From a virus, in the UHGV virus genome UHGV-0061697: a stretch of DNA of 14,426 bases. The stretch is one strand, 5' to 3'. Position numbers and translations under genes: made by a program. Positions 2,550-14,364 of this stretch are shown here, in pieces. The notes beneath the pieces are model-generated. The model was not told where the DNA came from. It made no database searches and saw only the letters and a program-made list of their open reading frames with translations. Numbering within the stretch: the stretch's first letter is position 1; each line of letters opens with the position of its first letter.

Positions 2550-2632
2550 ATATGGCGGTAGCCCAGACGGGGGTAGGAATACCGGTAAACGAAGAAACCG
2601 GCCAGCTAAAAGCTGCCCCATCTGAGCCACCA
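2550..2632 (-). ncRNA. Candidate c4/CA-like antisense immunity RNA in the leader of the icd operon (boundaries approximate)
   Basis: About 370 nt of non-coding leader upstream of icd on the minus strand. It contains stable hairpins (CCGGU-N10-ACCGG, CAGCU-UUU-AGCUG), a tRNA-like 5' segment (GGUGGCUCAGAUGG), and an element UUCCUACC complementary to two identical copies of GTTCCTACGC (plus strand 2538-2547 and 2704-2713) that flank it. This arrangement recalls the P4 CI and P1 c4 systems. Ends were not determined. Confidence 0.3.
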
Positions 2633-2796
2633 TAAATTTGGTGTACGCAGATTTTACACACAAAAAAACACGCTGGCGCGTGTTGTGCGCTTCATTTACT
2701 CGGGTTCCTACGCCCGGCTACGGGATTTACCGTAGCGGAGTAAACTTTACCGTCAAAACGACGCGCACGTCAATAATTTGCAAAGACATTTTACCC

Positions 2797-8343: not shown

Positions 8344-8940
8344 TCATCTACCCTCAACCATGAATGATTTGATCGTTCCGACTATTTGGTGAACAAATTC
8401 AAGATCGCTTTTCCTGAAGATGGCGCGTTGTGAGTTTGTTCCATCCAGATAGTAATTTTCATCATCAAAACGGGCCAGGCGCTGGATAGTGATATTTCCT
8501 GCAGTATCACGAACCAGAACATCCTCGCCGGGGACCAGTTCCAGCGCAGAATCGACCAGGAGAAAATCGCCTGGCTGATAGTTTCCCTGCGTAAGATTGC
8601 TGATAGTTAACGCATACACAGTATTGCGCTGGCTGATGAATGGCAGGAATCGCTCAGTATTTGGAACCTGTCCCGGCTTCCACTCTTCATCCGGCCCACT
8701 TTCAGTTGTGCCAATAACAGGAATGCGATCAGGGTCATATTCTGTCCCATATAGCACCCAATGCACTGGCTTGCGTAAGCACTTAGCCAGGGCAATACCT
8801 ATCTCCAGTGACGGCATTACGTCGCCACGTTCTAAGTTTTGGACGCCTGCTATAGAGATATCGACAGCCTCAGCAACTTCTCGCAACGTCAGCTTCATCT
8901 CTAAACGGCGTGCTTTCAGTCGTTCGCCTCGTGTTTTCAT
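8344..8940 (-). CDS. cB: Prophage repressor CB (N-terminal HTH, C-terminal LexA/CI-like S24 fold), 198 aa
   Basis: ORF from track. N-terminal HTH LTLREVAEAVDISIAGVQNLERG; C-terminal GDFLLVD...GEDVLVRD...ITIQRL pattern typical of the S24-like domain. Divergent from a cro-like gene across an operator-bearing intergenic region. Confidence 0.85.
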   Translation of the reverse strand: MKTRGERLKARRLEMKLTLREVAEAVDISIAGVQNLERGDVMPSLEIGIALAKCLRKPVHWVLYGTEYDPDRIPVIGTTESGPDEEWKPGQVPNTERFLPFISQRNTVYALTISNLTQGNYQPGDFLLVDSALELVPGEDVLVRDTAGNITIQRLARFDDENYYLDGTNSQRAIFRKSDLEFVHQIVGTIKSFMVEGR

Positions 8941-13505: not shown

Positions 13506-13748
13506 ATGGATAAAAAGGCATTGCTTTTTGAAATGATACGAAAACGGAGCGAAAAGAGCTTTTCTGATGGTGGTGATGGGTTTGTTTTCGCTTCGATGCT
13601 TGCTTTTGATGTTGGGTTAAATAGCAGAATTGTTAAAAGGATGCTTGATTCTGCTGTCCGTACTGGACTTCTTGAGAAAGTTGATCGTGGCATAGGGAGA
13701 GAGCATAAGTATCGGGCCACACAGCAGTTTACGCAGTTAATTCATTGA
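13506..13748 (+). CDS. Hypothetical protein (80 aa)
   Basis: ORF from track; GGAGGG RBS 4-9 nt upstream of the ATG. Confidence 0.5.
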   Translation: MDKKALLFEMIRKRSEKSFSDGGDGFVFASMLAFDVGLNSRIVKRMLDSAVRTGLLEKVDRGIGREHKYRATQQFTQLIH

Positions 13749-13770
13749 AAATTGACCGTAAAGTTTGAGT

Positions 13771-13798
13771 TTTACCCTGTAATTTTATACAGTATAAA
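13771..13798 (+). promoter_or_regulatory. Candidate SOS-regulated promoter: -35 TTTACC (13771-13776), -10 TATAAA (13793-13798), with a LexA box ccCTGTaattttatACAGta (13775-13794) filling the spacer
   Basis: CTGT-N8-ACAG with an AT-rich spacer matches the E. coli LexA box consensus taCTGTatatatatACAGta. It is the only such site I found in the window. Confidence 0.6.
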
Positions 13799-13830
13799 TA
13801 ACCTTTTTTAGTTAAATGGTATGAGATTTA

Positions 13831-14034
13831 ATGTCTGAAGCAGCCGTATCAACTCTTGAACAACTCGATTCAAATTTAAGAGATATTGACGCCGTTCTGG
13901 ATCTGGTTAGCGTCACCCTGGCTTCTCCAGAAGCCAGCCTACATATTGGTGAGGTTTCACGACTCATCAACATGTCGCGAGAGATTGCCCAGCATTGTCA
14001 GAAAACTATCGCTGTTGAGCGTTCACATCATTGA
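13831..14034 (+). CDS. Small protein (67 aa) downstream of the LexA-box promoter; candidate SOS-induced antirepressor (AntC-like role)
   Basis: ORF from track (MSEAAVSTLEQLDSNLRDIDAVLDLVS...). The functional call is inferred from the LexA box and from N15 biology, not from sequence similarity. Confidence 0.45.
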   Translation: MSEAAVSTLEQLDSNLRDIDAVLDLVSVTLASPEASLHIGEVSRLINMSREIAQHCQKTIAVERSHH

Positions 14035-14076
14035 TGCACACCCCGCCCTTCTGGACGGGGTAGTAAAAGAGTCTAA

Positions 14077-14364
14077 TTAATAAACAGCGCGAATATCGAT
14101 GGTTGCGCCGCAGGCATGAGCATATTTAGCCAAAGTTTTCATACTTGCCCCTAAAGGATTGCTTTCCAGGCGGCTGATGGCTGACGGTCGCAACCCCATT
14201 CGTTCAGCCAGAGCTGATTTCGTTAAACCTGCTCTTTCCCTCATTTCGTATAACATTTCGACCATCTCCAGCTCTTTGTCGGCCTCTTCATATCCTTTGA
14301 CGGCTTCTGGAGTGTTGAGGAGTTTTTCTTTTACTTCGTTAAACGGGATGCCTTTCGCTTTCAT
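14077..14364 (-). CDS. HigA-like antitoxin, XRE-family HTH (95 aa)
   Basis: ORF from track; HTH GLTKSALAERMGLRPSAISRLE. The ATG overlaps the stop of an upstream minus-strand ORF (TGATG) and has AAGGAG upstream. Confidence 0.65.
   Translation of the reverse strand: MKAKGIPFNEVKEKLLNTPEAVKGYEEADKELEMVEMLYEMRERAGLTKSALAERMGLRPSAISRLESNPLGASMKTLAKYAHACGATIDIRAVY

What the first reader, a model, noticed from the sequence alone, without database searches (positions are those of the whole stretch)
13771..14034. LexA box inside the promoter of a 67-aa gene: probable SOS input to prophage induction
A near-consensus LexA operator (CTGT-N8-ACAG, AT-rich spacer) lies exactly between a -35 and -10 hexamer, 37 nt upstream of a 67-aa ORF. 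The CB repressor in this window appears to lack the S24 catalytic residues (separate finding). Together these suggest induction by an SOS-controlled antirepressor rather than by repressor autocleavage, as described for N15. The 67-aa protein is the candidate antirepressor. It is convergent with the toxin-antitoxin pair.
Basis: partly seen in the sequence, partly recalled or inferred. Interest (0 to 1): 0.65.

Follow-up and report, generated by a model that had tools for sequence, protein, structure and literature searches.

The report
SOS-controlled AntC antirepressor of N15-like prophage
This is the counterpart, in a close relative of phage N15, of N15's known antC module: a small gene kept off by the host DNA-damage repressor LexA, whose product is expected to switch off the prophage repressor CB.

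Summary
A perfect CTGT-N8-ACAG box with an all-A/T spacer lies at 13777-13792, 38 nt upstream of a real 67-aa gene (13831-14034, +).

- **The box is not chance.** It is the only such box in the window. It scores 19.1 bits on a LexA matrix; the next best site scores 10.2, and 0 of 1000 simulated windows reach 19.1.
- **The box is conserved.** It is present at the same offset in all 40 distinct related loci examined, down to 38% protein identity, and is the most conserved block of the region.
- **The element is N15-like.** The window is a linear plasmid-prophage of the genus Ravinvirus, 99% identical to Escherichia phages PhiR46_1 and YDC107_1.
- **The gene matches N15 antC.** It is the syntenic homologue (about 52-56% identity) of an unannotated 70-aa ORF between N15 genes 47 and 48. 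By elimination that ORF is antC, the LexA-repressed antirepressor of CB (Mardanov & Ravin 2007).
- **CB cannot self-cleave.** CB here, as in six relatives, lacks the Ala-Gly cleavage site and the Ser/Lys catalytic pair.

An invariant TTG (TTGAGT, 13765-13770) paired with TACAGT inside the box is the better promoter model.

Verdict: interpretation supported. This is a new member of a known kind and of low novelty. The family is labelled "hypothetical" in every database checked.

The parts
13777..13792 (.). LexA operator (SOS box) core CTGTAATTTTATACAG. The 20-mer is 13775-13794.
   Evidence: It is unique in the window. It scores 19.1 bits against 10.2 for the next best site, and 0 of 1000 simulated windows reach that score. 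It is present in all 40 distinct homologous loci, ending 36-42 nt before the ATG. It is the most conserved block of the region, with mean column conservation 0.92 against 0.68-0.76 for the flanks and the CDS.
13765..13770 (+). Probable -35 hexamer TTGAGT (conservation-supported model)
   Evidence: The TTG is invariant in all 39 distinct upstream sequences scored, and its spacing to the box is fixed. It was not called by the consensus scan, because the two hexamers match only 8 of 12 positions. No transcription-start data are available.
13788..13793 (+). Probable -10 hexamer TACAGT, 17 nt after TTGAGT. It is the right arm of the LexA box.
   Evidence: It is invariant in all relatives. The annotated p95 promoter of phage 186 tum has an analogous layout: its -10, TACTGT, is an arm of the LexA box. 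This assignment is inferred.
13793..13798 (+).
   Evidence: A -10-like hexamer sits at this position in all relatives (mean 4.6 of 6). The paired -35 is not conserved (mean 1.9 of 6).
13831..14034 (+). antC homologue, 67 aa: candidate antirepressor of CB
   Evidence: It is 55.6% identical to the unannotated N15 ORF at 39619-39831 and lies in the same position between a gp47-like gene and the toxin-antitoxin pair. It matches phrog_6301 at E = 1.8e-35 and phrog_10889, described as 'anti-repressor', at E = 6e-8. Codon-position conservation is 2 > 1 > 3 (0.87, 0.79, 0.63), as expected for a coding sequence. AlphaFold2 predicts a two-helix hairpin with pLDDT 93.
14038..14064 (.). GC-rich hairpin between the convergent antC and antitoxin genes; possible weak bidirectional terminator
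   Evidence: The 61-nt stretch 14025-14085 folds at -15.9 kcal/mol (z = -2.46; 3 of 200 shuffles fold as well). There is no U-tract on either strand, and the terminator scan did not call it. Its function is inconclusive.
14077..14364 (-). HTH antitoxin (homologue of N15 gene 48), convergent with antC. The RelE/ParE toxin gene (N15 gene 49) starts beyond 14364 and runs off the window.
   Evidence: It matches Pfam HTH_3 at E = 2.8e-12. The annotation of YDC107_1 and N15 agrees.
13506..13748 (+). gp47-like 80-aa gene, the last gene of the rightward early operon upstream of antC
   Evidence: It is annotated 'putative gp47' in YDC107_1. No terminator or significant RNA structure lies between it and antC (z = -0.08).
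8344..8940 (-). CB prophage repressor, the presumed target of AntC. It has an HTH domain plus a catalytically dead S24-like C-terminal domain.
   Evidence: It matches HTH_3 at E = 3.3e-11. Its Peptidase_S24 match is below threshold (21.3 bits against a cut-off of 23.3) and covers only profile positions 29-97. At the position of LexA Ser119 it has Thr or a gap; Lys156 is replaced by Gln; Ala84-Gly85 is replaced by Ser-Gly. It is 78% identical to N15 CB.

Best explanation
This locus is the antC module of an N15-like linear plasmid-prophage.

**In a lysogen.** Host LexA binds the operator at 13777-13792. The operator overlaps the core promoter of a single-gene unit, so the 67-aa gene stays silent.

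**After DNA damage.** RecA-stimulated self-cleavage of LexA frees the promoter, and the 67-aa two-helix protein is made. It binds the prophage repressor CB (8344-8940), which cannot cleave itself, and removes it from its operators. This derepresses cro, Q and repA and starts lytic growth.

**Shown here:**
- the operator, its statistical strength and its strict conservation;
- that the gene is real, under coding selection, and a syntenic homologue of the N15 ORF;
- that CB lacks the Ser/Lys pair and the Ala-Gly site.

**Inferred:** LexA binding, damage induction, the AntC-CB contact, and which hexamers form the promoter. The first three are inferred from the published N15 work.
For: - **Element.** The window is 99% identical to Ravinvirus phages, with protelomerase, RepA, CB, Cro and Q present.
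- **Box significance.** 19.1 bits, 0 of 1000 simulations, unique in the window.
- **Box conservation.** It is retained at a 36-42 nt offset in 40 of 40 distinct loci from phages, plasmids, IMG/VR, GTDB and Logan assemblies, down to 38% protein identity. Flanking DNA is far more variable.
- **N15 counterpart.** N15 has the homologous unannotated ORF with the same box. It is the only LexA box in N15 that is neither inside a gene nor in front of the umuD-like gene.
- **Literature.** AntC is a LexA-controlled antirepressor of N15 CB that starts induction (PMC3121763; PMC4488713).
- **Family annotation.** The protein matches phrog_10889, described as 'anti-repressor', at E = 6e-8.
- **CB.** All 7 CB proteins found alongside an AntC homologue lack Ser119, Lys156 and the Ala-Gly site. 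This was also published for N15 and phiKO2 (PMC4997575).
- **Co-variation.** CB and AntC divergence co-vary (r = 0.78 over 21 pairs, which are not phylogenetically independent).
Against: - There is no experimental evidence for this variant. AntC is only about 51-56% identical to N15 AntC.
- The primary paper (Mardanov & Ravin 2007, PMC1951935) is not held. The equation 'N15 ORF 39619-39831 = antC' therefore rests on elimination and on my recollection.
- No database names any family member AntC; all are 'hypothetical' or 'Gp47'.
- The promoter is weak by consensus and was not called by the scan.
- The fold is a generic helical hairpin with no informative structural neighbour.
- The LexA matrix was built from sites I recalled from memory.
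Confidence: 0.85

Rival explanations
1. The promoter is LexA-regulated, but the 67-aa protein has an SOS-linked job other than inactivating CB. Examples would be modulating RecA or cell division, or acting on the adjacent toxin-antitoxin pair. Induction would then run through another route.
For: The protein has no Pfam or NCBIfam family and no informative fold neighbour. It is only about 51-56% identical to N15 AntC. A toxin-antitoxin pair lies convergently next to it in most relatives.
Against: It is the syntenic homologue of the N15 ORF that must be antC. It matches a PHROG family described as anti-repressor. In L071 the toxin-antitoxin pair is replaced by HicAB, and in L065 none is present, while antC and its box persist. 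CB has no self-cleavage machinery, so some antirepressor is needed.
Confidence: 0.07
2. The secondary immunity system in the same window (immA: C4-type antisense RNA plus AntA/AntB-like, BRO-domain antirepressor genes) is the main trigger of induction. The LexA-controlled gene would be accessory or redundant.
For: The window carries a C4 antisense RNA (2551-2637, -) and an isrK-like RNA (2663-2736, -), together with the immA-like genes. N15 has a characterised anti-immunity system there (Ravin et al. 1999, cited in PMC4488713).
Against: The literature states that N15 induction is initiated by antC expression (PMC4488713), and the title of the 2007 paper calls it the antirepressor needed for induction. 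No LexA-like site scoring above 10.2 bits exists anywhere else in the window, including immA.
Confidence: 0.05
3. The palindrome is not a LexA site. It would be a chance match or the operator of a phage-encoded regulator, and the small ORF would be constitutive or driven by read-through from the upstream early operon.
For: The bare pattern occurs by chance in 31 of 200 shuffles. No terminator separates antC from the upstream operon. The consensus scan called no promoter.
Against: The full 20-mer scores in the middle of the range of known LexA sites and was never reached in 1000 simulations. CTGT/ACAG and the flanking TA are invariant across relatives whose CB repressors differ by up to 23%. 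CB operators are described as T-A-(N)10-T-A 16-mers located at cB/cro and repA (PMC4997575).
Confidence: 0.03

Closest known systems
AntC of coliphage N15 (Mardanov & Ravin 2007, J Bacteriol 189:6333), with its unstudied homologue Gp47 of Klebsiella phage phiKO2
   Same: The protein is a homologue (about 52-56% identity to N15, about 51-57% to phiKO2 Gp47). It occupies the same position between gene 47 and the RelE/HTH toxin-antitoxin pair. The LexA box is at the same 38-39 nt offset. The element is the same kind of linear plasmid-prophage, and its CB repressor is 78% identical and equally lacks the S24 catalytic residues.
   Different: The protein is 67 aa against 70 aa, and the C-terminal third has diverged. 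The box spacer is AATTTTAT against GTTTATAT. The downstream hairpin lacks the A/T tracts of the N15 bidirectional terminator. This variant has not been tested experimentally.
Tum of coliphage 186 (LexA-repressed p95 promoter; antirepressor of 186 CI)
   Same: The logic is the same: a LexA box overlaps the -10 of a dedicated promoter outside the immunity region, and the product inactivates a repressor that cannot cleave itself.
   Different: There is no sequence similarity (no BLASTP alignment at E <= 100), and the PHROG families differ. Tum is 146 aa with a DinI-like C-terminal half; AntC is a 67-aa helical hairpin with no DinI domain.
GfoA and GftA of the Salmonella Gifsy prophages (Lemire et al. 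2011, PMC3121763)
   Same: They are small LexA-controlled antirepressors, encoded away from the immunity region, that act on short repressors unable to cleave themselves.
   Different: The Gifsy antirepressors lie in a dinI-antirepressor-irsA operon. Here the unit is a single gene with no dinI or irsA neighbours. The sequence relationship was not tested.
P22 Ant and BRO/KilAC-type antirepressors (including N15 gene 30 in immA)
   Same: The functional class is the same: a protein that inactivates a prophage repressor.
   Different: They are large multidomain proteins controlled by antisense RNA or by Arc/Mnt, not by LexA. The 67-aa protein has no Bro-N or ANT Pfam match. The immA copy is a separate locus in this window.

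Membership tests
N15 AntC-type SOS antirepressor module | Protein homologous to N15 AntC | tested here: met
   tblastn gives 55.6% identity over 94% of the query, E = 9e-16, to N15 39619-39807; 27 columns are invariant across 6 lineages. Caveat: that this N15 ORF is antC is inferred by elimination of the other LexA boxes, because the primary paper is not held.
N15 AntC-type SOS antirepressor module | LexA operator overlapping the gene's promoter | tested here: met
   The match is perfect CTGT-N8-ACAG, 19.1 bits, with 0 of 1000 simulations reaching it. It is conserved in 40 of 40 distinct loci. It covers the spacer and the -10 in both promoter models.
N15 AntC-type SOS antirepressor module | LexA binds the site and transcription is induced by DNA damage in a RecA/LexA-dependent way | not testable with these tools
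   This needs a gel shift or footprint and reporter assays.
N15 AntC-type SOS antirepressor module | The product binds the CB repressor and inactivates it | not testable with these tools
   Only indirect support exists: CB and AntC divergence co-vary (r = 0.78), and the protein matches phrog_10889 'anti-repressor'.
N15 AntC-type SOS antirepressor module | The cognate prophage repressor cannot cleave itself | tested here: met
   In the window CB and six relatives, Ala84-Gly85 is replaced by Ser/Thr-Gly, Ser119 by Thr/Ile/Val (or a gap), and Lys156 by Gln/Leu. The S24 Pfam match is below the cut-off. This agrees with PMC4997575.
N15 AntC-type SOS antirepressor module | Located in the right arm of a protelomerase-bearing linear plasmid-prophage, after the early operon | tested here: met
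   The window holds TelN (66-1979), RepA, CB, Cro and Q. Gene order matches N15 and phiKO2. All 17 matching places in complete E. coli genomes are on plasmids.
Tum (phage 186) antirepressor family | Sequence homology to Tum, with a DinI-like C-terminal half | tested here: not met
   BLASTP finds no alignment at E <= 100. No PHROG family is shared. There is no DinI Pfam match.
BRO/ANT (P22 Ant-like) antirepressors | Bro-N and/or ANT/KilAC domains | tested here: not met
   There are no such Pfam matches at E <= 1. The protein is 67 aa and a two-helix hairpin.
Gifsy GfoA/GftA antirepressors | LexA-controlled dinI-antirepressor-irsA operon; homology to GfoA/GftA | not tested
   The operon context is clearly different: a single gene with no dinI or irsA neighbours. 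The sequences were not compared because I had no GfoA or GftA sequence in hand.
Self-cleaving LexA/CI (peptidase S24) repressors, considered for CB | Ser-Lys catalytic pair and Ala-Gly cleavage site | tested here: not met
   See: neither the catalytic pair nor the cleavage site is present.

The most novel reading that the evidence does not exclude
The hairpin after antC has no U-tract, and a toxin-antitoxin pair sits convergently at this position in most relatives (RelE/HTH in most, HicAB in one). SOS-induced antC transcription might therefore read into the antitoxin gene in antisense. That would lower antitoxin expression and couple toxin activation to prophage induction. A separate possibility: the fast-evolving AntC (78% identical between elements whose CB is 100% identical) might let heteroimmune N15-like plasmid-prophages induce one another.
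Probability: 0.07. Interest if true: 0.5.

Novelty: new member of a known kind. Interest (0 to 1): 0.18.

Why it matters
**Mechanism.** Nothing new: induction by an SOS-controlled antirepressor was shown for N15 in 2007, and for phage 186 and the Gifsy prophages.

**Annotation.**
- The AntC family has no name in Pfam or NCBIfam.
- Every public protein record found calls it 'hypothetical' or 'Gp47'.
- The N15 RefSeq record does not annotate the gene at all.
- The family is tiny: 5 representatives at 50% identity among 1.84 billion proteins. It appears confined to N15-like telomere phage-plasmids of Enterobacteriaceae, which are common in clinical Klebsiella and E. coli.

**Practical use.** The strictly conserved pairing of LexA box and antC marks these elements as inducible by DNA-damaging antibiotics.

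Tried and rejected
- **Primary paper.** I tried to read it by PMC id and by DOI. It is not held.
- **Literature searches.** Searches for the coordinates of antC found only secondary mentions. A search for induction data on the ECOR13 phage found nothing relevant.
- **Family libraries.** Pfam and NCBIfam gave only sub-threshold noise for the 67-aa protein.
- **Database names.** Two homologue searches and an exact cluster look-up returned only 'hypothetical' or 'Gp47'.
- **Fold search.** Searching the high-confidence model against the PDB and BFVD gave only generic helical hairpins, all with E > 0.5, so it says nothing about function.
- **Consensus scans.** The promoter and terminator scan called no promoter at antC and no terminator after it.
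- **Terminator or riboswitch in the 82-nt gap upstream.** Rejected: the fold is no better than shuffles (z = -0.08).
- **Homology to Tum.** Rejected.
Rejected as the likely real one, because it is not conserved.
- **Technical failures.** The first attempt at the Markov simulation timed out, and one script failed on a file path. Both were rerun successfully.

Full report
**What the window is.** The last kilobase is 99.2-99.4% identical to Escherichia phages PhiR46_1 and YDC107_1, both of the genus Ravinvirus, the N15 group. Lining the window up with the YDC107_1 annotation, supported by Pfam, gives this gene order:
- protelomerase (66-1979);
- an immA-like block;
- the 1331-aa RepA;
- the CB repressor (8344-8940, -);
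- Cro and Q;
- a rightward early operon ending in a gp47-like 80-aa gene (13506-13748);
- the 67-aa gene (13831-14034);
- a convergent HTH antitoxin (14077-14364, -), followed by a RelE/ParE toxin gene that runs off the window.

In complete E. coli genomes the locus occurs in 16 of 5426 genomes, always on plasmids. That fits a linear plasmid-prophage.

**Checking the observation.** CTGTAATTTTATACAG lies at 13777-13792 and is the only CTGT-N8-ACAG in the window. The bare pattern is not rare: 31 of 200 shuffles contain one. I therefore scored 20-mers with a symmetric matrix built from 20 E. coli LexA sites. These sites are from my memory of the literature, so individual bases may be wrong.
- The site CCCTGTAATTTTATACAGTA (13775-13794) scores 19.1 bits, inside the 13.2-25.6 range of the training sites.
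- The next best site in the window scores 10.2 bits.
- None of 1000 first-order Markov simulations of the window reaches 19.1; the highest was 18.99.

The ORF is as described, 67 aa with an ATG at 13831. The gap between box and ATG is 38 nt rather than 37.

**Conservation.** I collected homologous loci from five sources:
- GenBank phages (N15, phiKO2, KpLi5, MStein-2023a);
- PLSDB plasmids, where 213 records match, mostly Klebsiella;
- IMG/VR (52 loci);
- GTDB genomes (2 loci);
- two distant Logan contigs.

All 40 distinct versions carry (C/A)TGT-N8-ACAG ending 36-42 nt before the ATG. That includes the relatives at 42% and 38% protein identity. In an alignment of 38 distinct sequences, the 16-mer has mean column conservation 0.92. 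The flanking intergenic DNA, the leader and the CDS range from 0.68 to 0.76. This is a clear phylogenetic footprint.

Within the CDS, conservation by codon position is 0.79, 0.87 and 0.63 for positions 1, 2 and 3. This is the pattern of a translated gene.

**The promoter.** The -35 is not conserved in relatives (mean 1.9 of 6 matches). An invariant TTG lies six bases further upstream.
- It gives TTGAGT (13765-13770), a 17-nt spacer, and TACAGT (13788-13793), the right arm of the box. This arrangement is preserved in every relative.
- A -10-like hexamer just after the box is also conserved (mean 4.6 of 6).

I therefore favour the TTGAGT/TACAGT model but cannot exclude the other without transcription-start data. 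LexA would block RNA polymerase in either case. The annotated p95 promoter of phage 186 tum has the same design, with its -10 inside the LexA box. The simple consensus scan called no promoter here.

**Identity of the gene.** By tblastn the protein is 55.6% identical to N15 coordinates 39619-39807 (E = 9e-16). Nothing is annotated there. The site lies between gene 47 and the gene 48/49 toxin-antitoxin pair. The N15 ORF is 70 aa and is preceded by CTGTGTTTATATACAG at the same offset.

N15 contains three CTGT-N8-ACAG boxes in all:
- one with a GC-rich spacer inside gene 16;
- one in front of the umuD-like gene 26;
- this one.

Published work describes AntC of N15 as a LexA-controlled antirepressor that acts on CB and starts induction (PMC3121763; PMC4488713). 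Both cite Mardanov & Ravin 2007. I could not read that paper. By elimination the ORF at 39619-39831 must be antC, which also agrees with my recollection.

The protein matches phrog_6301 (unknown function, E = 1.8e-35) and phrog_10889, described as 'anti-repressor' (E = 6e-8). It has no Pfam or NCBIfam family, and every named database record is 'hypothetical' or 'Gp47'. The family is very small: 5 representatives at 50% identity among 1.84 billion proteins.

AlphaFold2 predicts a confident two-helix hairpin (pLDDT 93; helices 2-30 and 33-66). The invariant SPEASLH motif spans the turn and the start of the second helix. Fold searches returned only generic hairpins.

**The target.** CB has an N-terminal HTH domain and a C-terminal region with a sub-threshold, truncated S24 match. 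I aligned it with LexA, lambda CI and UmuD, using sequences from memory. The window CB and six CB proteins from AntC-bearing relatives show these substitutions:
- Ser/Thr-Gly in place of the Ala-Gly cleavage site;
- Thr/Ile/Val, or a gap depending on the alignment, at the position of Ser119;
- Gln or Leu at the position of Lys156.

This matches what Hammerl et al. reported for N15 and phiKO2 CB (PMC4997575). CB therefore cannot be induced by self-cleavage and needs an antirepressor.

CB and AntC divergence co-vary (r = 0.78 over 21 pairs, which are not independent), and AntC evolves faster. The window and plasmid pE16EC0348-1 have identical CB, but their AntC proteins are only 78% identical.

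**Mechanism.** In the lysogen, LexA occupies the box and blocks the antC promoter. DNA damage activates RecA and LexA cleaves itself. AntC is then made, binds CB and releases it from OR and OL, and the lytic and replication genes switch on.
- Shown here: the operator, its conservation, the reality and homology of the gene, and the loss of the catalytic pair in CB.
- Inferred from N15: LexA binding, damage induction and the AntC-CB contact.

One further inference follows from the layout. No terminator or stable structure separates antC from the upstream early operon. Once CB is removed, read-through could add positive feedback.

**Rivals.**
- A different SOS function for the protein (0.07).
- The immA system as the main trigger (0.05).
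- A palindrome that is not a LexA site (0.03).

All three are disfavoured by the homology, the conservation and the literature, as set out in the structured fields.

**Comparison with known systems.**
- *N15 AntC.* This is an orthologue; all features testable in silico are met.
- *186 Tum.* It works like Tum but is not homologous to it.
- *Gifsy GfoA/GftA.* It works like them but has a different operon context.
- *P22 Ant/BRO-type antirepressors.* It is unrelated to them.

**Verdict.** This is a new member of a known kind and of low novelty. The practical gain is an annotation fix for a consistently unnamed family and a refined promoter model.

Noticed in passing
window 2551-2637 (-) and 2663-2736 (-): Rfam gathering-level matches to C4 antisense RNA (RF01695, 73.6 bits) and isrK (RF01394, 62.5 bits). 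They lie in the immA-like secondary immunity block, next to the BRO-domain, antA and icd-like genes. This is a second, RNA-controlled antirepressor system in the same window.
   Followed up: no
L010 (N15, NC_001901) 39619-39831: The N15 RefSeq and GenBank records do not annotate the antC ORF at all. phiKO2 calls its homologue Gp47, YDC107_1 calls it 'putative gp47', and every other record found says 'hypothetical'. This is a persistent annotation gap.
   Followed up: partly
L010 (N15) 21660-21675: A second good LexA box, CTGTATAAAAAAACAG, lies 17 nt upstream of N15 gene 26 (UmuD-like protein). N15 therefore has at least two SOS-controlled units. The equivalent region is outside this window.
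   Followed up: no
L071 8267-9089 and L065 571-902: The slot convergent with antC holds different cargo in different relatives. Most have RelE/ParE plus an HTH antitoxin. A 38%-identity relative has HicA/HicB. A 42%-identity relative has no toxin-antitoxin pair, and antC is followed directly by a methylase gene.
   Followed up: partly
window 14038-14064: A GC-rich hairpin lies between the convergent antC and antitoxin genes. The 61-nt stretch 14025-14085 folds at -15.9 kcal/mol (z = -2.46). It has no U-tract on either strand, unlike the N15 hairpin, which is flanked by A and T runs. Termination efficiency is unclear.
   Followed up: partly
window 8344-8940 vs L069 4353-4949; window 13831-14034 vs L069 9001-9204: The window and plasmid pE16EC0348-1 encode identical CB repressors, but their AntC proteins are only 78% identical. 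AntC tolerates, or is driven towards, much faster change than its presumed target.
   Followed up: no
L005 1397-1492 (Klebsiella phage KpLi5): A 31-aa CDS (vBKpnSKpLi5_51) is annotated across the antC promoter and LexA box. It is probably a spurious gene call.
   Followed up: no
window 13831-14034 (protein look-up): The exact 67-aa protein is recorded on at least 1000 contigs, the longest 4.85 Mb. All 17 places in complete E. coli genomes are plasmid-borne. The long contig may be a mis-join or a rare integrated copy.
   Followed up: no
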